A stretch of DNA of 6,259 nucleotides from Escherichia phage NC29, in sequence record NC_007827.1. The stretch is one strand, 5' to 3'. The translations under genes and the position numbers were made by a program. The notes below the pieces were generated by a model that did not search any database, was not told the origin of the DNA, and worked only from the letters and a program-made list of their open reading frames with translations. Positions 1-6,259 of the stretch are shown piece by piece. Numbering within the stretch: the stretch's first letter is position 1; each line of letters opens with the position of its first letter.

Positions 1-64
1 TTATTGACAACTCCCAATCCCTTATGAGACTCTTGCTTCAATTAAATGACGTAGGAGTCTTTTT

Positions 65-433
65 ATGAAACCCGCTCATCGCCTTACTCATCCAATTCTT
101 GGTTCTTGGTTGTTTAAGTGTCCTGTTTATATTCGTTATGAGTCGCTTCATCATGGTCGCCTTATCAAGGTCCGTGCTGTTCGTGATTTGTCCCCTCGTC
201 AACGATTGATTGCTAATCCTAAGAATTGCTTTGACGTTGTTATTGCTGAAATTGATCTTACTTATGAAACCGTTACTTGGTTTGATTTTATGGATGAGGA
301 ATATGCCGCGTGTACCCCCGAGGTTATGCAGCTTCTCATTTCCTCTATTGACTCTTCTGATGTTATTCGTTCTGTAGAAGACCCGACCGTTGATTCAGGT
401 GATATGGATTGGCTTTATGAAATTGTGGAGTAA
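65..433 (+). CDS. hypothetical protein, H-A spacer ORF1 (122 aa; basic N-terminal half, strongly acidic C-terminal half)
   Basis: ATG at 65 preceded by SD-like TAGGAG (52-57, 7-nt spacing); uninterrupted 122-codon frame ending TAA 431-433; third codon positions strongly T-biased like the core phage genes; no resemblance I can recognise to phiX174 proteins A-H. Confidence 0.6.
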   Translation: MKPAHRLTHPILGSWLFKCPVYIRYESLHHGRLIKVRAVRDLSPRQRLIANPKNCFDVVIAEIDLTYETVTWFDFMDEEYAACTPEVMQLLISSIDSSDVIRSVEDPTVDSGDMDWLYEIVE

Positions 434-436
434 TTT

Positions 437-529
437 ATGGAAACTGTTATCGGAAAATTTATTGCTCTGGCTGTTGTTGCTCTTATGCTGTATGGAATTT
501 CCCGCTTGATTAGTAGGACTTTGAAATGA
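437..529 (+). CDS. hypothetical small hydrophobic peptide, H-A spacer ORF2 (30 aa, METVIGKFIALAVVALMLYGISRLISRTLK)
   Basis: ATG 437 lies 3 nt after the ORF1 stop, with GGAG (427-430) at 6-nt spacing; a hydrophobic core long enough for one transmembrane helix followed by a basic tail; T-biased third positions. Below the 60-aa cutoff of the supplied ORF track, found by hand translation. Confidence 0.4.
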   Translation: METVIGKFIALAVVALMLYGISRLISRTLK

Positions 530-702
530 AGTATTTTAGCCTTGTGGATGAACACTATGCTTATTGCCCTGATTCGCGCATTTTGCACATCACTCGTAGT
601 CGTGTTTCTGACCCTCGGTATGAGCGTCGTTTTCTTACTGATGAGGAGCATCTTGCACTTCTGGATTGGTTGAAAAATCGCCCAACTTATATTAATTCTT
701 GA
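526..702 (+). CDS. hypothetical protein, H-A spacer ORF3 (58 aa, MKYFSLVDEHYAYCPDSRILHITRSRVSDPRYERRFLTDEEHLALLDWLKNRPTYINS)
   Basis: ATG 526-528 overlaps the ORF2 stop TGA 527-529 (ATGA coupling); AGGA (515-518) at 7-nt spacing; T-biased third positions; stop TGA 700-702. Found by hand translation. Confidence 0.5.
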   Translation: MKYFSLVDEHYAYCPDSRILHITRSRVSDPRYERRFLTDEEHLALLDWLKNRPTYINS

Positions 703-728
703 CAAGTCTTTGATACACCGTCTATATT
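699..728 (+). promoter_or_regulatory. sigma70-like promoter upstream of gene A (pA-like): TTGACA - 18 nt - TATATT
   Basis: -35 TTGACA at 699-704 (6/6 consensus), 18-nt spacer, -10 TATATT at 723-728 (5/6); position equivalent to phiX174 pA just upstream of gene A. Confidence 0.45.
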
Positions 729-759
729 GCCCTCATAGTGATTCTACGAGGGCTTTTTT
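729..759 (+). terminator. intrinsic terminator-like hairpin plus T6 tract (T_H-like) immediately upstream of the gene A start
   Basis: GCCCTC (729-734) pairs with GAGGGC (748-753) and TAG (736-738) with CTA (744-746), 5-nt loop, followed by TTTTTT 754-759; GC-rich stem plus U-tract is the classic rho-independent architecture. Confidence 0.55.
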
Positions 760-761
760 GC

Positions 762-2246
762 ATGGCTACTGAAAACTTCTTCGATGTTGTTAAGACCGTC
801 TGGTCCCACGCTACGGCTAAGCACGCCCATCTTCGTATGGCTGTTCAGGTTGATAACCGCAGTCGCCTTCTCTCTGACCTCGTTTATCAGTTGGAAAAAC
901 GTCTTTCTGAAGAAACTCATCTGGATGATGAGACTTATTCCCTTTATGAATCTCAAACTGGTTTCTTGGAAGACCATATGTCTCTGGTTCGGAAGTGTGC
1001 TGCCCAACTTGATAATAGTAACACTATAGACCACCGTACCTCTTTGGATGCCGAATGTGTTTTCCTGTTTGAAATGATTTGCCCGGGTGTTCGCTACGGT
1101 AAAACGTTGAATTCTCTTTGGACTAAGTATGTTGCTCAATGGCCTGAGAAGTTAATTCGTCAAGAGTTAGACATGGTTAAGCCTTTATCCTTTAAGGATG
1201 AGGTTGCTAGGTACATGGAGAAGATGCAGGAAAAAACACGCAAAAATCGCATGACTCAAAAAGTAATTAATGAGATGCGTATTGCTCACCAAAAGGGCTG
1301 GTTTTTCGTATTTGATACTTTGACACTTGCTGATGACCGTTTGCAGGCTTTTAATGAAAACCCCAATGCTCTTCGTGATTATTTCAGGACTGTTGGTCGA
1401 GCTGTTCTGCGCGCTGAAGGTCGTTCGGTTAAGGATTCCTACAACGACTGCTATCGCTATCTTTGTGTGCCGGAGTTTGGAGGTCAGCACGGTCGTCTTC
1501 ATTGGCACGTTGTGCATATGGTGCGGACTCTTCCTTTGGGAAGTCACGACCCTAATTTCGGTCGCAAGGTACGTAATTATCGCCAGATTAACTCGTTCCG
1601 TGGCATGTGGCCTTATGGCTTCACGCAACCGATAGCTGTACGCTATCAACATGATGCTTATTCTCGCAAAGGTTGGTTGTGGCCTGTTGACAAATCAGGT
1701 AAAGCAATGCAGAGTAAGCCCTATCAGGCGGTCGCATGGTATGTGACCAAGTATGTAGCCAAGCAATCTGACCAGCGTCAGAAAGCTATTACTGAGAGAC
1801 AAAAAAAATGCAAGAATCCACTTATGGCAATCTGTCTGAAAAAGGAATTCAGAGTTCGCAGCAGCCGGAAGCTCGGAATGGAGTTACCGTCGATGGCGCA
1901 TCTCAGCAACAAAGTGCTTCTGGAGCTGAGTCGAATCAGCTTCGATTCCAGCCCTCTGTATCAGATAGTGAAAGAGAACGCCAAAAAGCAATTGACCTTG
2001 AACATCGGCGCGCTGCCTTTGCACGTCATTTTGGATGTGCGCCCGGAAGTGAGAAGTATGTTGAAAAATATCCGTCGTTTGATGAAAAAGACACCCGAGT
2101 TCAATTGGCAGAGTTCTATCGCTTCAATGACGGTCACCTTAAAAAATGGGGATATTTCTGATGAAGCACGTCAATACATTATTGATGCAGGAATTACGCC
2201 TTTTGATTTGCGAGCTAAAGCGACTCAAACTTTCGGCGGTAAGTGA
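762..2246 (+). CDS. A: replication initiation protein A (rolling-circle HUH endonuclease)
   Basis: Alignable along most of its length to phiX174 gpA as I remember it: HUH motif in HGRLHWHVVHMVRTLP, twin catalytic tyrosines in YVTKYVAKQSD, and GWFFVFDTLTLADDRL. The track ORF begins at GTG 738; I prefer the first ATG (762, MATENFF...). Stop TGA 2244-2246. Confidence 0.9.
   Translation: MATENFFDVVKTVWSHATAKHAHLRMAVQVDNRSRLLSDLVYQLEKRLSEETHLDDETYSLYESQTGFLEDHMSLVRKCAAQLDNSNTIDHRTSLDAECVFLFEMICPGVRYGKTLNSLWTKYVAQWPEKLIRQELDMVKPLSFKDEVARYMEKMQEKTRKNRMTQKVINEMRIAHQKGWFFVFDTLTLADDRLQAFNENPNALRDYFRTVGRAVLRAEGRSVKDSYNDCYRYLCVPEFGGQHGRLHWHVVHMVRTLPLGSHDPNFGRKVRNYRQINSFRGMWPYGFTQPIAVRYQHDAYSRKGWLWPVDKSGKAMQSKPYQAVAWYVTKYVAKQSDQRQKAITERQKKCKNPLMAICLKKEFRVRSSRKLGMELPSMAHLSNKVLLELSRISFDSSPLYQIVKENAKKQLTLNIGALPLHVILDVRPEVRSMLKNIRRLMKKTPEFNWQSSIASMTVTLKNGDISDEARQYIIDAGITPFDLRAKATQTFGGK
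1015..1044 (+). other. viral (+) strand replication origin, 30-nt gpA recognition/nick site inside gene A
   Basis: CAACTTGATAATAGTAACACTATAGACCAC matches the phiX174 30-nt origin CAACTTGATATTAATAACACTATAGACCAC (from memory) at 28/30 positions, both differences in the AT-rich spacer; the expected nick is between G1021 and A1022. Confidence 0.75.
1224..2246 (+). CDS. A*: A* (in-frame internal restart of A), start codon tentative
   Basis: phiX174 A* begins at an internal Met (MKSRRGF...) about 25 residues before the conserved GWF motif; the equivalent position here is flanked by in-frame ATGs at 1215, 1224 and 1251. None has a convincing SD, so the exact start is not determinable from sequence. 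Confidence 0.3.
   Translation: MQEKTRKNRMTQKVINEMRIAHQKGWFFVFDTLTLADDRLQAFNENPNALRDYFRTVGRAVLRAEGRSVKDSYNDCYRYLCVPEFGGQHGRLHWHVVHMVRTLPLGSHDPNFGRKVRNYRQINSFRGMWPYGFTQPIAVRYQHDAYSRKGWLWPVDKSGKAMQSKPYQAVAWYVTKYVAKQSDQRQKAITERQKKCKNPLMAICLKKEFRVRSSRKLGMELPSMAHLSNKVLLELSRISFDSSPLYQIVKENAKKQLTLNIGALPLHVILDVRPEVRSMLKNIRRLMKKTPEFNWQSSIASMTVTLKNGDISDEARQYIIDAGITPFDLRAKATQTFGGK
1808..2161 (+). CDS. B: internal scaffolding protein B (encoded within A in another frame)
   Basis: 117 aa; C-terminus ...RVQLAEFYRFNDGHLKKWGYF parallels phiX174 gpB ...RIQPAEFYRFHDAEVNTFGYF; acidic, Q/S-rich N-terminal half; entirely nested in gene A. Confidence 0.85.
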   Translation: MQESTYGNLSEKGIQSSQQPEARNGVTVDGASQQQSASGAESNQLRFQPSVSDSERERQKAIDLEHRRAAFARHFGCAPGSEKYVEKYPSFDEKDTRVQLAEFYRFNDGHLKKWGYF

Positions 2247-2322
2247 CCCGAATTTTTCTCAGGAGAAGATTCATGCTGAGCTCGACTCGTTACTACGCAA
2301 GTTATCGCGCTACTTTGACTAA
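2161..2322 (+). CDS. K: protein K (small overlapping gene spanning the A/C junction)
   Basis: Hand translation from ATG 2161 (overlapping B stop TGA 2159-2161) gives 53 aa MKHVNTLLMQELRLLICELKRLKLSAVSDPNFSQEKIHAELDSLLRKLSRYFD; the N-terminal leucine-rich segment resembles phiX174 gpK (..KQELLLLVYEL..); overlaps the 3' end of A and the 5' end of C as in phiX174. Confidence 0.7.
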   Translation: MKHVNTLLMQELRLLICELKRLKLSAVSDPNFSQEKIHAELDSLLRKLSRYFD

Positions 2323-2479
2323 GCAGCTTATGTTTTTGACTAAAGCTGACTTTACCAATGATGATGAAAAATGGCTTAATGCCTTTGGTAATTTGCTCCG
2401 TCAGTGGTTTCAGATTGAGGATTGGAAAGGTAATCACAAAAAATTGCTTGACGATTTGAAAAACAGGCATTATATTTAA
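2273..2479 (+). CDS. C: protein C (DNA replication switch / packaging)
   Basis: ATG 2273 with AGGAG (2261-2265) at 7-nt spacing; 68 aa; ...TKADFTNDDEKWLNAFGNLLRQWFQIEDW resembles phiX174 gpC ...KTDALDEEKWLNMLGTFVKDWFRYESH. The track ORF starts at GTG 2243; ATG 2273 preferred. Confidence 0.8.
   Translation: MLSSTRYYASYRATLTKQLMFLTKADFTNDDEKWLNAFGNLLRQWFQIEDWKGNHKKLLDDLKNRHYI
2448..2476 (+). promoter_or_regulatory. sigma70-like promoter at the 3' end of gene C (pD-like): TTGACG - 17 nt - TATATT
   Basis: -35 TTGACG 2448-2453 (5/6), 17-nt spacer, -10 TATATT 2471-2476 (5/6) overlapping the last codons of C; best promoter match I found in the window; pD lies within C in phiX174. Confidence 0.5.
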
Positions 2480-2712
2480 CTCATAGATAAATGAAGCAGT
2501 GGTGCAAAGTAGTTTATCTAAGTGGTAAGTTCAGTGAAGGGTGACCCGCTCTAAGTAGCTGAAGGGTGTTGGATGTAAGGACTCCGCGATTGACTGGTTT
2601 ATACTGGAACACTATCGGGTCAGTGAAGTGGCTGCTGAGAAATAGCCCTCTAGCTTTACGAAGACTAGGCTACATCGCGAACACCATTGTTACTTTTTTA
2701 TGGAGGATTTAT

Positions 2713-3171
2713 ATGTCTAATCTTGTTGCTACCGATGTTAATTTTGCTACCTCTGTTGCTGCTCTGAAGATGCTTCAGGCTTCTGCTGTTCTTGATATCA
2801 CTGAGGAAGATTTCGATTTTCTGACTGGTGATAAGATTTGGATTGCTACTGACCGCAATCGTGCTCGTCGTTGTGTTGAGGCGTGTGTTTATGGAACGCT
2901 GGACTTTGTTGGATACCCTCGCTTTCCTGCTCCTGTTGAGTTTATTGCTGCCGTCATTGCTTATTATGTTCATCCCGTCAACATTCAGACGGCCTGTCTC
3001 ATCATGGAAGGCGCTGAGTTTACGGAGAACATTGTTAATGGCGTCGAACGTCCGGTTAAAGCCGCTGAACTCTTTGCGTACACCTTGCGTGTTAAGGCTG
3101 GATTCAAAGAAACGGTTCTGAGTGCTGAAGATAATGCTCGTCAGAAACTTCGTGCAAGTGGAGTTATGTAA
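2713..3171 (+). CDS. D: external scaffolding protein D
   Basis: 152 aa; ATG 2713 with GGAGG (2702-2706) at 6-nt spacing; near-identical over long stretches to phiX174 gpD (LQASAVLD.TE.DFDFLT...WIATDR.RARRCVEACVYGTLDFVGYPRFPAPVEFIAAVIAYYVHPVNIQTACLIMEGAEFTEN). Confidence 0.95.
   Translation: MSNLVATDVNFATSVAALKMLQASAVLDITEEDFDFLTGDKIWIATDRNRARRCVEACVYGTLDFVGYPRFPAPVEFIAAVIAYYVHPVNIQTACLIMEGAEFTENIVNGVERPVKAAELFAYTLRVKAGFKETVLSAEDNARQKLRASGVM
2891..3121 (+). CDS. E: lysis protein E (embedded in D, +1 frame)
   Basis: 76 aa; MERWTLLDTLAFLLLLSLLLPSLLIMFIPSTFRRPVSSWKAL... is nearly identical to the phiX174 E N-terminal transmembrane domain, including the conserved Pro21. Confidence 0.85.
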   Translation: MERWTLLDTLAFLLLLSLLLPSLLIMFIPSTFRRPVSSWKALSLRRTLLMASNVRLKPLNSLRTPCVLRLDSKKRF

Positions 3172-3172
3172 T

Positions 3173-3247
3173 ATGAAAAAGGCTCGTCGTTCTCCTTCTC
3201 GTAAGAAAGGTGCCCGTCTCTGGTATGTAGGCGGTTCTCAATTTTAA
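3173..3247 (+). CDS. J: small basic DNA-binding/packaging protein J (24 aa)
   Basis: Hand translation MKKARRSPSRKKGARLWYVGGSQF; the C-terminus KGARLWYVGG.QF matches phiX174 gpJ, while the short 24-aa length is typical of alpha3/G4-type J; starts 1 nt after the D stop. Confidence 0.85.
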   Translation: MKKARRSPSRKKGARLWYVGGSQF

Positions 3248-3252
3248 TTAAT

Positions 3253-3278
3253 GGGCTTCGGCCCCTATAAGGATTTTT
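3253..3278 (+). terminator. cUUCGg tetraloop hairpin in the J-F spacer (T_J-like terminator or mRNA 3' stabiliser), overlapping the F ribosome-binding site
   Basis: GGGC (3253-3256) / TTCG loop / GCCC (3261-3264), then CTATAAGGATTTTT; SD TAAGGA 3268-3273 sits 7 nt before the F ATG. phiX174 has a terminator in the J-F spacer. Confidence 0.35.
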
Positions 3279-3280
3279 AA

Positions 3281-4564
3281 ATGTCAAATGTACAAACTTC
3301 CGCTGAGCGTATCCCTCATGACCTGTCTCATCTGGTTTTTGAAGCAGGCAAAATTGGTCGTTTAAAAGTTGTTTCTTGGACTCCTGTTGTTGCAGGTGAT
3401 TCTTTTGAGCTTGATATGATTGGCGCTATTCGCCTCTCCCCGCTTCGTCGTGGTCTTGCTGTTGACTCTCGCGTTGACTTGTTCACGTTTTATGTTCCTC
3501 ATCGTCATGTATATGGTGAGCAGTGGATTGAGTTTATTAAGGAAGGTGTCAATGCTCCACCGTTGGCTCCTGTTCAGTGCTCTCGTGGTTGGGATAGTGC
3601 GCAGTATCTCGCTACTATTCCGTCTTCTAACTTAAAGGTTCCTAAGTTCCTTCATCAAGGTTACTTGAACATTTACAATAACTATTTTAAAGCTCCGTGG
3701 ATGGATGACTTGACTTATGCCAACCCATCTAATATGGAAGGTGAAGATGTTCGTTTTGGTGTTCGTGCATGTAATTTAAAAACTATCTGGACTGCTCCGC
3801 TTCCTCCAGATACTGAGACTTCTCATTCTATGGAGACCGAGACCAACTCCATTGACATTATGGGTTTACAGGCCGCTTATGCTCAATTACATACCGAGCA
3901 GGAGCGTGATTACTTCATGACTCGTTATCGTGATATTGTTAACGAATTTGGTGGTAGTACTTCTTATGATGCGGATAATCGTCCTTTGCTTGTTATGCAT
4001 TCTGAGTTCTGGGCCTCAGGCTATGACGTCGACGGCACCGACCAAAGCTCTCTCGGTCAGTTCTCCGGTCGTGTTCAGCAGACGTTTAAGCATTCAGTAC
4101 CGCGATTCTTCTGTCCTGAGCATGGCACTATGTTCACACTCGCATTGGTCCGCTTCCCTCCGACTCATGAAATGGAGATGCATTACTTAGTTGGTAAAGA
4201 AAATTTGACTTATACTGATCTGGCTTGTGATCCTGCTTTGATGGCTAACTTGCCTCCGCGTGAGGTTAATATGTCTCAGTTCTTCCATTCTGGAAGTGCT
4301 AGTGCTAAGTTTAAGATCGCTGAGGGTCAGTGGTATCGTATGCAGCCTGACCGCGTTGCATTGCCGTATAACTATCTTGATGGTTTTCCGTTCTATAGTG
4401 CGATTCCGTCTCATGATATTAAGCAGCGTGTTCTGGTTAATACTGATAACTATGATGAGGTTTTCCAGTCTATGCAGCTTGCACACTGGAATATGCAGAC
4501 TAAGTTTAACTGCACGATTTATCGTAATATGCCGACCACTCGTGATTCTATTATGACCTCTTGA
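3281..4564 (+). CDS. F: major capsid protein F
   Basis: 427 aa; long blocks match phiX174 gpF (MSN.QT.AER.PHDLSHL, LRLSPLRRGLA.DS.VD.FTFYVPHRHVYGEQWI, QGYLNIYNNYFKAPWM, SIDIMGLQAAYA.LHT.QERDYFM.RYRD, SYDADNRPLLVM, GYDVDGTDQ.SLGQFSGRVQQT.KHSVPRFF.PEHGTMFTLALVRFPPT, TTRDSIMTS). Confidence 0.95.
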   Translation: MSNVQTSAERIPHDLSHLVFEAGKIGRLKVVSWTPVVAGDSFELDMIGAIRLSPLRRGLAVDSRVDLFTFYVPHRHVYGEQWIEFIKEGVNAPPLAPVQCSRGWDSAQYLATIPSSNLKVPKFLHQGYLNIYNNYFKAPWMDDLTYANPSNMEGEDVRFGVRACNLKTIWTAPLPPDTETSHSMETETNSIDIMGLQAAYAQLHTEQERDYFMTRYRDIVNEFGGSTSYDADNRPLLVMHSEFWASGYDVDGTDQSSLGQFSGRVQQTFKHSVPRFFCPEHGTMFTLALVRFPPTHEMEMHYLVGKENLTYTDLACDPALMANLPPREVNMSQFFHSGSASAKFKIAEGQWYRMQPDRVALPYNYLDGFPFYSAIPSHDIKQRVLVNTDNYDEVFQSMQLAHWNMQTKFNCTIYRNMPTTRDSIMTS

Positions 4565-4570
4565 TTATGT

Positions 4571-4587
4571 GGGGCTTCGGCCCCCTT
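4571..4587 (+). terminator. cUUCGg tetraloop hairpin in the F-G spacer (T_F-like terminator or mRNA 3' stabiliser)
   Basis: GGGGC (4571-4575) / TTCG loop / GCCCC (4580-4584), then CTTT; followed by SD TAAGGA 4588-4593, 7 nt before the G ATG; near-duplicate of the J-F module. Confidence 0.35.
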
Positions 4588-4600
4588 TAAGGATTTGATT

Positions 4601-5146
4601 ATGTTTCAAGTTTATGTAGCTAAGCATGTTGCTCCTTTTACTTCTATGAACCGTACCTTTTCTATCTCTCCTGCTGCTGCCCCGCAGGTTGTCAATTCTG
4701 GTGAGATTGTTGCAGGTCGTTCTACTTTTCGTATTGCTTCCTCTATTGGTTCTGCTTCTAATGGTAATGGTTTCGCATTCGTTCAGATGATGGACCCTAA
4801 CTCTCCTGATTCTCAACAGGTTTTCTCTGTTGCTGCGTCGCTATCTTTTAGTGTTGACTCGAATTATGTTCCTTGCGTTGTTCGTTTTGAAAGTAGTTTC
4901 TCTCAGCCTGGTCAATTTGCTATTGCTGAGGCTGATTTTATTCCGGTTGAGTCGTCAGCTCTTTCTGCTCGTGCGCTTAGCGTTCGTGATTGTGTTACTG
5001 TTGATGTTAAGCCTCGCGCTGAAGGTAATAATGTTTTTGTTGGACTGTTCTTGTCTTCTGCCGCCGCTAATGCTGGTAATGTTACTGGTGTCATTTCTAT
5101 GGCTCAGGTTGACCATGAAGTTACAGCTTTGCAGCCTCTTAAATAA
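4601..5146 (+). CDS. G: major spike protein G
   Basis: 181 aa from ATG 4601 (track ORF starts at TTG 4595); MFQ... N-terminus and CVVRFESS, DCVT.DV.PR..GNNV.VG, and C-terminal LQPLK match phiX174 gpG. Confidence 0.9.
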   Translation: MFQVYVAKHVAPFTSMNRTFSISPAAAPQVVNSGEIVAGRSTFRIASSIGSASNGNGFAFVQMMDPNSPDSQQVFSVAASLSFSVDSNYVPCVVRFESSFSQPGQFAIAEADFIPVESSALSARALSVRDCVTVDVKPRAEGNNVFVGLFLSSAAANAGNVTGVISMAQVDHEVTALQPLK

Positions 5147-5160
5147 AAGGCCGCCGCACT

Positions 5161-5256
5161 CTCGGTTATATGCCTGCCCAGTGTAGGGCGGACCGAGCCG
5201 TACGGAGATACCCGTGAAACTAGGAACGTGGAAGGCGTTAGCCGCCTTCCCTCCTG
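5161..5256 (+). other. candidate complementary (-) strand origin: three consecutive stem-loops in the GC-rich G-H spacer
   Basis: Hairpins: CTCGGT 5161-5166 / ACCGAG 5192-5197 enclosing 5174-5179 / 5186-5191; ACGG 5202-5205 / CCGT 5212-5215; GGAAGGCG 5230-5237 / CGCCTTCC 5243-5250 (perfect 8-bp stem, 5-nt loop); CTG at 5254-5256 just 3' of the last hairpin. G4-type phages prime at a multi-hairpin origin with DnaG alone. Confidence 0.4.
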
Positions 5257-5281
5257 CTAAGCCCAAAGGAGACTTTCAGCT

Positions 5282-6259
5282 ATGTTAGGTGCCGTTGTTG
5301 GTGGTATTGCTTCAGCCTTAGCCGGTGGAGCAGCTTCTAAGTTGTTTGGTGGTAAGCCTGCCTCTCAGGCCGCTACCGAATCCGCTGGCCTTTCTAATGG
5401 TCAAGGTGTTATTGGTATGGACCAAGATGCCGGTATTCAGTCCGCTATTCAGGGTTCAAATGTCCCAAATGGTCAGATTCCCGCTCCTACTACTACAGGT
5501 GGCGTTATGTCTGATGCTGGTAATATGATTAAGAATGCTGGTAAAGATTTGCTTGATGGTGTTATGACTGCCGGTAGTGACCGTGTTAAGCAGGCTTTGA
5601 TTGACAGATTGGGTGGTAATAATGCAAAGAGACAAGGAAAAGCAACCCGTGATTACTTGGCTGCAGCCTTCCCTGAACTCAATGCATGGGAACGTGCTGG
5701 AGCTGTTGCTTCCGGCTCCGGCTTGGAATCTTCCAGTCAGGACCAGCAGAAAGAGTTGATGCGAATGCAGCTGGACAATCAGAAAGATATTGCGAAGATG
5801 CAGATGCAGAATAATTTGCAGATTGCTGGTATTCAGTCCGCTACTTCTCGTCAAAATACGAAGGATTCTGTTTATGCTCAGAATGAGATGCTTCAGTACA
5901 ATCAACGTGAGTCACAGGCACGTGTTGAGTCTATCCTTGCCAACACTAACCTTACGGATAAACAGGCTACCCATGAAATCATGAGGATGGCCCTTACTCG
6001 TGCTCAGGAGACTGGTCAGCATTTGACTAACTCTCAGATTATTGCTTTGGAGAAAAAGGTTTATGCAGAAATTGGAAAAATTCATCAAGATACTCAAAAC
6101 TCTCGCTATGGTAGCTCTCAAGTTACTGCTGCGGCGAAAGATGTTACGAATATGATTACCGATGCCGCCTCAGGTGCTGCTGATTGGGCCTCTCAGCAAT
6201 GGAATTCGTTCTTCAAGGATGGTAAGTCTAATGGCATTCCTCTTAACACCAGAAAATAA
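5282..6259 (+). CDS. H: minor spike / DNA pilot protein H
   Basis: 325 aa; N-terminus M.GA..GGIASALAGGA.SKLFGG and internal TRDYLAAAFPELNAWERAGA, IAGIQSATSRQNTKD.VYAQNEML.Y match phiX174 gpH; AGGAG-like AAGGAG 5266-5271 upstream; stop TAA is the last three bases of the window. Confidence 0.9.
   Translation: MLGAVVGGIASALAGGAASKLFGGKPASQAATESAGLSNGQGVIGMDQDAGIQSAIQGSNVPNGQIPAPTTTGGVMSDAGNMIKNAGKDLLDGVMTAGSDRVKQALIDRLGGNNAKRQGKATRDYLAAAFPELNAWERAGAVASGSGLESSSQDQQKELMRMQLDNQKDIAKMQMQNNLQIAGIQSATSRQNTKDSVYAQNEMLQYNQRESQARVESILANTNLTDKQATHEIMRMALTRAQETGQHLTNSQIIALEKKVYAEIGKIHQDTQNSRYGSSQVTAAAKDVTNMITDAASGAADWASQQWNSFFKDGKSNGIPLNTRK

What the first reader, a model, noticed from the sequence alone, without database searches (positions are those of the whole stretch)
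1015..1044. Conserved 30-nt viral-strand origin with two substitutions in the AT-rich spacer
The gpA recognition/nick sequence is present inside the A coding region, identical to my recollection of the phiX174 origin except T to A at 1025 and A to G at 1028, both in the AT-rich middle segment that is known to tolerate variation among phiX-like phages. It anchors the identification of the replicon type and places the nick site at 1021/1022.
Basis: partly seen in the sequence, partly recalled or inferred. Interest (0 to 1): 0.4.

Follow-up and report, generated by a model that had tools for sequence, protein, structure and literature searches.

The report
Alpha3-type phage viral-strand replication origin

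Summary
The 30-mer CAACTTGATAATAGTAACACTATAGACCAC is real, but it lies at window 1005-1034, not 1015-1044. The substitutions are at 1015 and 1018, and the inferred nick is G1011/A1012.

The window is a whole alpha3-like microvirus genome, about 93% identical to NC3/ID32/WA13.

The two substitutions are not peculiar to this phage. All 24 alpha3-like GenBank records, 12 IMG/VR contigs and 4 metagenome contigs carry this exact 30-mer. 544 phiX174/G4-like records carry the other form, and no third allele was found.

The 30-mer is the peak of cross-clade nucleotide identity in gene A. It has ten consecutive codons with identical third positions; the next longest run is four. That indicates DNA-level constraint.

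The gpA encoded around it has the HUH motif and both catalytic tyrosines.

Verdict: correct identification of a known element; coordinates wrong; low interest.

More interesting things were noticed in passing. A roughly 215-nt insert upstream of gene D carries a covarying structured element shared with tailed phages. Two conserved ORFs lie in the H-A "intergenic" region.

The parts
1005..1034 (+). 30-nt viral-strand (+) origin, alpha3/St-1 allele: CAACTTGATAATAGTAACACTATAGACCAC
   Evidence: It matches the phiX174/G4 origin at 28/30. It is identical in all 13 distinct alpha3-like genomes fetched and in 24 GenBank records. It is the best 30-nt window of cross-clade identity in gene A.
1005..1014 (+). 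Recognition decamer CAACTTGATA; inferred gpA cleavage between G1011 and A1012
   Evidence: It is the only copy in the window at up to 1 mismatch and is identical in all three clades. The nick position is inferred from phiX174 G4305/A4306 (rep_origin at 4306; preprint text).
1015..1021 (+). A+T-rich spacer ATAGTAA (phiX174/G4: TTAATAA); clade-specific substitutions at 1015 (T->A) and 1018 (A->G)
   Evidence: It is 6/7 A+T, against 7/7 in phiX174. The changes fall at second codon positions, giving I->N and N->S in gpA. The spacer boundaries are from my recollection of the literature, not tested here.
1022..1034 (+). Distal block CACTATAGACCAC (duplex-binding 'key' sequence in the phiX174 literature)
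   Evidence: It occurs once in the window at up to 2 mismatches. It is part of the longest three-way identical nucleotide run in gene A, 1019-1034, 16 nt. The functional label is from recollection.
762..2246 (+). Gene A, replication initiator gpA (494 aa), which contains the origin
   Evidence: Pfam PF05840 Phage_GPA, E 2.7e-58. It is 97% identical to alpha3, St-1 and NC3 gpA and 44% to phiX174 and G4 gpA.
1500..1517 (+). HUH metal-binding motif HWHVVH (H247, H249)
   Evidence: It aligns with phiX174 HFHAVH (His263/His265).
1740..1754 (+). Catalytic tyrosine pair YVTKY (Y327, Y331)
   Evidence: It aligns with phiX174 Tyr343/Tyr347.

Best explanation
Window 1005-1034 is the origin of viral-strand (rolling-circle) DNA synthesis of an alpha3-like microvirus (Bullavirinae, genus Alphatrevirus).

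By homology with phiX174, the proposed mechanism is as follows. The gpA encoded by the surrounding gene (762-2246) binds the supercoiled replicative form at the distal block (1022-1034). The A+T-rich spacer (1015-1021) helps the duplex open. One of the two catalytic tyrosines (Y327/Y331) cuts the + strand between G1011 and A1012 within the decamer CAACTTGATA and stays covalently attached to the 5' phosphate. The 3'-OH of G1011 primes host polymerase while Rep helicase unwinds. After one round the regenerated site is cut by the second tyrosine and the displaced strand is ligated into a circle.

The two differences from phiX174 (1015, 1018) are the fixed allele of the alpha3/St-1 clade. They are most likely tolerated spacer changes inherited with the clade, not an innovation of this genome.

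Shown here: the sequence, its position, its conservation pattern and the catalytic motifs of gpA. Inferred: binding, melting, the nick position and all chemistry.
For: There is one exact site, with none in 200 shuffles.

The phiX174 and G4 origins are identical to the recalled 30-mer, and the window differs at positions 11 and 14 only. phiX174 rep_origin is annotated at 4306. Cleavage at G4305/A4306 within a 30-nt ori+ is stated in bioRxiv 10.64898/2026.07.25.740675.

The site scores 28/30 against phiX174 and G4, against a mean of 15-16/30 for 30-nt windows of aligned gene A, and it is the top-scoring window.

Third codon positions are identical in window, phiX174 and G4 for exactly the 10 codons 1005-1034. 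The next longest run is 4, and 6 of 20000 shuffles reach 10. The flanking protein sequence is unalignable or divergent.

All 24 alpha3-like GenBank records carry this allele, and 544 phiX174/G4-like records carry the other. The 19 IMG/VR contigs found by DNA pattern are the same 19 found by gpA protein search.

gpA matches PF05840 at E 2.7e-58 and has the HUH motif and the tyrosine pair.

Synonymous changes in phiX174 codons Q107-D115 are detrimental.
Against: No experiment was done on this genome, so nicking at 1011/1012 is inference by homology.

Within the alpha3 clade alone the invariance of the 30-mer is not exceptional. The invariant run 1005-1036 is only the fourth longest in the genome. 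A run of 10 codons with invariant third positions is expected about once by chance in the non-overlapping part of gene A.

The three-part division of the origin and the cross-cleavage of alpha3 and St-1 DNA by phiX174 gpA rest on my recollection of 1980s papers, which the library does not hold.
Confidence: 0.95

Rival explanations
1. The 30-mer is conserved only because gpA needs the peptide QLD(N/I)(S/N)NTIDH; there is no DNA-level function.
For: The site is in frame inside gene A, and 8 of the 10 residues are invariant across clades.
Against: All 10 third codon positions are identical across three clades whose gpA proteins are 44% identical. Elsewhere only 34% of third positions are shared even where the amino acid is conserved, so P is about 2e-5. 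The conserved island begins and ends exactly at the 30-mer, amid a poorly conserved N-terminal region. Synonymous changes there are detrimental in phiX174. The only two changes are non-synonymous, the opposite of what protein constraint predicts.
Confidence: 0.02
2. The two clade-specific substitutions are specificity determinants that co-evolved with the divergent alpha3-type gpA, so that each clade's initiator prefers its own origin.
For: The allele and the gpA clade co-segregate perfectly (24 versus 544 records). No intermediate single-substitution allele was found. gpA is only 44% identical between clades.
Against: Co-segregation is equally expected from common descent. From recollection (Heidekamp et al. 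1980, 1982; not retrievable here), phiX174 gpA cleaves St-1 and alpha3 RF DNA at this site. The G4 and phiX174 gpA proteins are themselves very different yet share one allele. Only the search for A11 intermediates was informative. The search for G14-only intermediates covered bacterial genomes only and found nothing at all.
Confidence: 0.12
3. The two substitutions were selected because together they create a perfect 5-bp inverted repeat (ATAGT-AAC-ACTAT, 1015-1027) that forms a hairpin in the displaced single strand.
For: T->A and A->G convert the two mismatches of a 3/5 pairing in phiX174 into a 5/5 stem. The alpha3 allele folds at -1.4 kcal/mol, against 0 for the phiX174 allele.
Against: The stem is very weak. 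The 91-nt region folds no better than shuffles, z +0.73. 30 of 189 possible double substitutions in the spacer would give a stem of 5 bp or more somewhere in the 30-mer. phiX174 and G4 function without it.
Confidence: 0.04

Closest known systems
Viral-strand origin of phages alpha3, St-1, phiK and the Rokyta alpha3-like isolates (NC3, ID32, NC35, WA13, WA45, ID21, ID62, NC28)
   Same: The 30-mer is identical base for base. It sits at the same place, 243 nt into gene A. The flanks are nearly identical, and gpA is 97% identical.
   Different: Nothing differs at the origin. The window differs elsewhere, being 80-93% identical overall, and it carries extra DNA between genes C and D.
phiX174 ori(+) (NC_001422 4299-4328; nick G4305/A4306) and the identical G4 origin (NC_001420 500-529)
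   Same: 28 of 30 bases match. The decamer CAACTTGATA and the 16 nt TAACACTATAGACCAC are identical. The site lies inside gene A in the same reading frame.
   Different: T->A at position 11 and A->G at position 14. The spacer is 6/7 A+T rather than 7/7. The encoded residues are N-S instead of I-N. The distance from the gene A start is 243 nt, against 318 (phiX174) and 441 (G4).
Nick sites of other HUH rolling-circle initiators (RCR plasmids, geminiviruses and circoviruses, Ff phage gpII origin)
   Same: A tyrosine-mediated single-strand nick leaves a 3'-OH primer and a covalent 5' protein link.
   Different: Those origins usually present the nick in a hairpin loop. Here no significant hairpin is predicted, as in phiX174.

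Membership tests
phiX174-type (Bullavirinae) viral-strand origin | 30-nt conserved sequence with recognition decamer CAACTTGATA at its 5' end | tested here: met
   The decamer is exact at 1005-1014 and unique in the window.
phiX174-type (Bullavirinae) viral-strand origin | Conserved distal block CACTATAGACCAC, separated from the decamer by a 7-nt A+T-rich spacer | tested here: met
   The block is exact at 1022-1034. The spacer ATAGTAA is 6/7 A+T.
phiX174-type (Bullavirinae) viral-strand origin | Located on the viral (+) strand inside gene A, in frame | tested here: met
   It forms codons 82-91 of the 762-2246 ORF.
phiX174-type (Bullavirinae) viral-strand origin | DNA-level rather than protein-level conservation across clades | tested here: met
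   There is a run of 10 identical third positions (next longest 4), and the site scores 28/30 against a mean of 15-16/30.
phiX174-type (Bullavirinae) viral-strand origin | Cleaved by gpA between G7 and A8 on supercoiled DNA; supports rolling-circle synthesis | not testable with these tools
   This needs in vitro nicking or replication assays.
Phage_GPA / HUH superfamily initiator (the partner protein) | Pfam PF05840 match above the gathering score | tested here: met
   197.9 bits against a cutoff of 31.4.
Phage_GPA / HUH superfamily initiator (the partner protein) | HUH motif and two catalytic tyrosines spaced YxxxY | tested here: met
   HWHVVH at 1500-1517 and YVTKY at 1740-1754, both invariant in the alignment with phiX174 and G4.
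Alphatrevirus (alpha3-like) clade | Whole-genome similarity and gene order A-B-K-C-D-E-J-F-G-H with a long H-A spacer | tested here: met
   96% coverage at 92.9% identity to NC3, and collinear with 24 alpha3-like records.

The most novel reading that the evidence does not exclude
The alpha3-clade spacer allele (A11, G14) is not neutral. It tunes origin use to the clade's own, highly divergent gpA, or creates a small hairpin, so that origin and initiator form clade-specific pairs that limit recombination between microvirus clades.
Probability: 0.1. Interest if true: 0.3.

Novelty: already known. Interest (0 to 1): 0.07.

Why it matters
The site matters little in itself. It confirms that the window is a complete alpha3-like microvirus replicon and fixes the correct coordinates of its origin and inferred nick (1005-1034; G1011/A1012).

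One modestly useful fact came out of the census. In all the public sequence searched, the phiX-type origin exists in only two alleles. They are separated by two linked changes, with no intermediates seen, and the split follows clade boundaries exactly.

Tried and rejected
(1) The old primary papers on the alpha3 and St-1 cleavage site and the origin domains (NAR 1980, J Virol 1982, NAR 1986) are not held. Text searches for them found nothing useful. The three-part origin model and the cross-cleavage by phiX174 gpA are therefore cited from memory only.

(2) I tried to read the fitness of T4309A/A4312G (I110N/N111S) from the 2026 phiX174 saturation-mutagenesis preprint. The stored tables are cut before those rows, and the hits were only atom numbers in structure files.

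(3) Hairpin at the origin: there is no significant fold. The 5-bp palindrome made by the two substitutions is weak and not rarer than chance, since 30 of 189 double substitutions do as well.

(4) Within-clade invariance as evidence: it is not exceptional. Only the cross-clade comparison is decisive.

(5) Search for further or intermediate alleles: none was found in IMG/VR or JGI metagenomes. The GTDB scan for non-A at position 14 found nothing at all, so it is uninformative.

(6) For the C-D insert, the 19-mer scan of GTDB genomes gave 5 hits whose flanks do not resemble the element. About 17 hits are expected by chance, so these are chance matches. A 22-mer from the 3' part found nothing in IMG/VR, and there was no match in E. 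coli genomes.

Full report
**What is in the sequence**

The window reads ...gctgcc CAACTTGATAATAGTAACACTATAGACCAC cgtacc... with the 30-mer at 1005-1034 on the + strand. Every coordinate it gave is 10 too high.
- The T->A change is at 1015 and the A->G change is at 1018.
- The G/A dinucleotide that corresponds to the phiX174 nick is 1011/1012.

A search with the phiX174 30-mer at up to three mismatches finds this one site. It finds none in 200 dinucleotide-preserving shuffles.

**Is the recalled reference right?**

Yes. NC_001422 (phiX174) 4299-4328 and NC_001420 (G4) 500-529 both read CAACTTGATATTAATAACACTATAGACCAC. The phiX174 record annotates rep_origin at 4306, the base after position 7 of the 30-mer. 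A 2026 preprint states that cleavage and religation occur at G4305/A4306 within the 30-nt ori+ (bioRxiv 10.64898/2026.07.25.740675). The window differs only at positions 11 and 14.

**What the window is**

The whole 6259-nt window aligns end to end with complete alpha3-like microvirus genomes. NC3 matches at 92.9%, ID32 at 92.5% and WA13 at 92.0%, while alpha3, St-1 and phiK match at about 85% over the aligned part. It starts and ends where those records do, with the gene H stop as the last base.

The gene order is A, B, K, C, D, E, J, F, G, H. The genus Alphatrevirus has a species NC29 that is absent from the hit list. The window may be that phage, but this is inference only.

**The two substitutions are a clade allele, not a feature of this genome**

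- All 13 distinct alpha3-like genomes I fetched carry exactly the window's 30-mer.
- A word-exact search of 50,697 GenBank phage records finds the window's allele in 24 records. These match, in number and in every accession listed, the 24 alpha3-like records that cover at least 80% of the window.
- The same search finds the phiX174/G4 allele in 544 records. Together these account for 568 of the 569 records that match the window at all.
- In IMG/VR, a pattern with a free 7-nt spacer finds 19 contigs: 12 with ATAGTAA and 7 with TTAATAA, and nothing else. A protein-first search with a gpA alignment returns the same 19 contigs.
- A JGI metagenome scan for any allele with a non-T at position 11 finds 4 contigs. 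All are alpha3-like and all have ATAGTAA.

So the natural origin exists in two alleles, with no intermediate seen. The search for G14-only intermediates was run only on bacterial genomes and found nothing at all, so it is uninformative.

**Is the conservation at the DNA level?**

Across clades, yes.
- In a protein-guided codon alignment of gene A from the window, phiX174 and G4 (44% protein identity), the 30-mer is the best 30-nt window. It scores 28/30 against a mean of 15-16/30.
- The two longest three-way identical nucleotide runs in that neighbourhood are 1019-1034 (16 nt) and 1005-1014 (10 nt).
- Third codon positions are identical in all three phages for exactly the ten codons 1005-1034. 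The next longest run is 4. Only 34% of third positions agree even where the amino acid is conserved. 6 of 20000 shuffles reach a run of 10.
- The surrounding N-terminal part of gpA is barely alignable between clades.
- The phiX174 mutagenesis preprint reports detrimental synonymous mutations in codons Q107-D115, which are the first 27 nt of the origin.

Within the alpha3 clade alone the signal is weak, and I do not lean on it. The invariant run 1005-1036 starts exactly at position 1 of the origin, but it is only the fourth longest in the genome. A run of ten codons with invariant third positions is expected about once by chance.

**Effect of the substitutions**

Both fall at second codon positions and change gpA: ATT->AAT (I->N) and AAT->AGT (N->S). 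The spacer goes from 7/7 to 6/7 A+T, with a computed rise of about 2 degrees in local duplex stability.

Together they turn a 3/5 match into a perfect 5-bp inverted repeat, ATAGT-AAC-ACTAT (1015-1027). That stem is worth only -1.4 kcal/mol. The 91-nt region folds no better than shuffles (z +0.73). 30 of 189 possible double substitutions in the spacer would give an equally good stem somewhere in the 30-mer. I therefore do not regard the palindrome as evidence of anything.

**The partner protein**

The ORF 762-2246 (494 aa from the ATG) matches Pfam PF05840 Phage_GPA at E 2.7e-58. It is 97% identical to gpA of alpha3, St-1 and NC3.

It keeps the HUH motif (HWHVVH, 1500-1517) and the tyrosine pair (YVTKY, 1740-1754). 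In phiX174 these are His263/His265 and Tyr343/Tyr347. phiX174 protein A is reported to act in cis on the DNA that encodes it (PMC3606162).

**Mechanism**

The sequence, its position, its conservation and the motifs are shown. The rest is inferred by homology with phiX174.
1. gpA binds the supercoiled replicative form at the distal block.
2. The A+T-rich spacer assists opening of the duplex.
3. A tyrosine cuts between G1011 and A1012 and stays attached to the 5' phosphate.
4. The 3'-OH primes synthesis while Rep helicase unwinds.
5. After one round, the second tyrosine cuts the regenerated site and the displaced strand is circularised.

The three-part division of the origin (decamer, spacer, binding block) comes from my recollection of work by van Mansfeld, Heidekamp, Fluit, Baas, Brown and Goetz. 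So does the statement that phiX174 gpA cleaves St-1 and alpha3 DNA. Some of these papers appear in the preprint's reference list, but none could be read here.

**Comparison and novelty**

This is the same element as the alpha3, St-1 and phiK origin, base for base. It is a two-substitution variant of the phiX174/G4 origin. It has been in public records since the alpha3 and phiK genome entries (X60322, X60323). It is already known, and interest is low.

**Noticed in passing: a structured insert between genes C and D**

The C-D intergenic region is about 230 nt here, against 45-75 nt in every relative.

About 157 nt of the extra DNA (roughly 2493-2649) is 75-79% identical (E 4e-23) to an unannotated intergenic stretch of Kuravirus podophages, including MN03, FS2B, XT18/32/73, SDYTW1-F1-2-2_3 and KarlSchell_Bas89. 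Its 5' part also occurs in Klebsiella phages, Ralstonia phage Reminis, rV5-like phages and one IMG/VR contig.

A nine-sequence alignment supports a hairpin.
- 91% of cells are paired, against 25-46% when the partners are slid.
- 8 of 13 pairs show compensatory double changes.
- 0 of 500 shuffles reach the observed values.

The hairpin has GAAG // YAAGUA internal loops, and GNRA loops occur in neighbouring hairpins.

No Rfam 15 family matches the element in any copy, and there is no tRNA. A promoter-like site (TTGACG-17-TATATT, 2448-2476) lies just upstream, so the element would be the 5' leader of the gene D transcript.

This looks like an undescribed structured RNA that a microvirus acquired from tailed phages. 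It deserves its own follow-up.

**Noticed in passing: conserved ORFs in the H-A 'intergenic' region**

ORFs 65-433 and 526-702 lie in the H-A region and vary mainly at third codon positions (44/34/96 and 11/6/30). ORF 65-433 is intact in all the relatives compared except the 1992 alpha3 record and, downstream, St-1. These ORFs are left unannotated in most records.

Noticed in passing
window 2484-2700 (C-D intergenic region; homology to tailed phages about 2493-2649; covarying hairpin about 2540-2575): About 215 nt of DNA is absent from all alpha3-like relatives. It is 75-79% identical to an unannotated intergenic stretch of Kuravirus podophages, and its 5' part is also found in Klebsiella, Ralstonia (Autographiviridae) and rV5-like phages. 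A 9-sequence alignment shows strong covariation for a hairpin with GAAG//YAAGUA internal loops: 91% of cells paired, 8 of 13 pairs with double changes, 0 of 500 shuffles reaching this. GNRA loops occur in neighbouring hairpins. AGCU..AGCU becomes AGUU..AGUU, which keeps pairing only through G.U, so the structure is RNA on the + strand. There is no Rfam 15 match in any copy. A promoter-like site at 2448-2476 lies just upstream, so it would be the 5' leader of the gene D mRNA. It is a candidate new structured RNA, horizontally acquired by a microvirus.
   Followed up: partly
window 65-433 and 526-702 (+ strand, H-A 'intergenic' region): Two ORFs (122 aa and 58 aa) lie in the long H-A spacer. Their variation among 12 alpha3-like genomes is concentrated at third codon positions (44/34/96 and 11/6/30), as in real genes. 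ORF 65-433 is intact in nearly all relatives. Both are unannotated in the Rokyta, alpha3, St-1 and phiK records and called 'hypothetical protein' only in Lilleven and MG945254.
   Followed up: partly
window 1-6259: The window is a complete circular genome laid out like the Rokyta et al. records. At 6259 nt it is longer than any of the 24 alpha3-like records in the collection (6039-6097). The ICTV species Alphatrevirus NC29 is missing from the hit list, so the window may be NC29. This was not verified.
   Followed up: no
L004 (alpha3 NC_001330) region homologous to window 65-433: The 1992 alpha3 reference has a 1-nt length difference and a premature stop in the conserved 122-aa ORF, unlike all other relatives. 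This is probably a sequencing error in the old record. A later alpha3 entry, DQ085810, is 2 nt longer.
   Followed up: no
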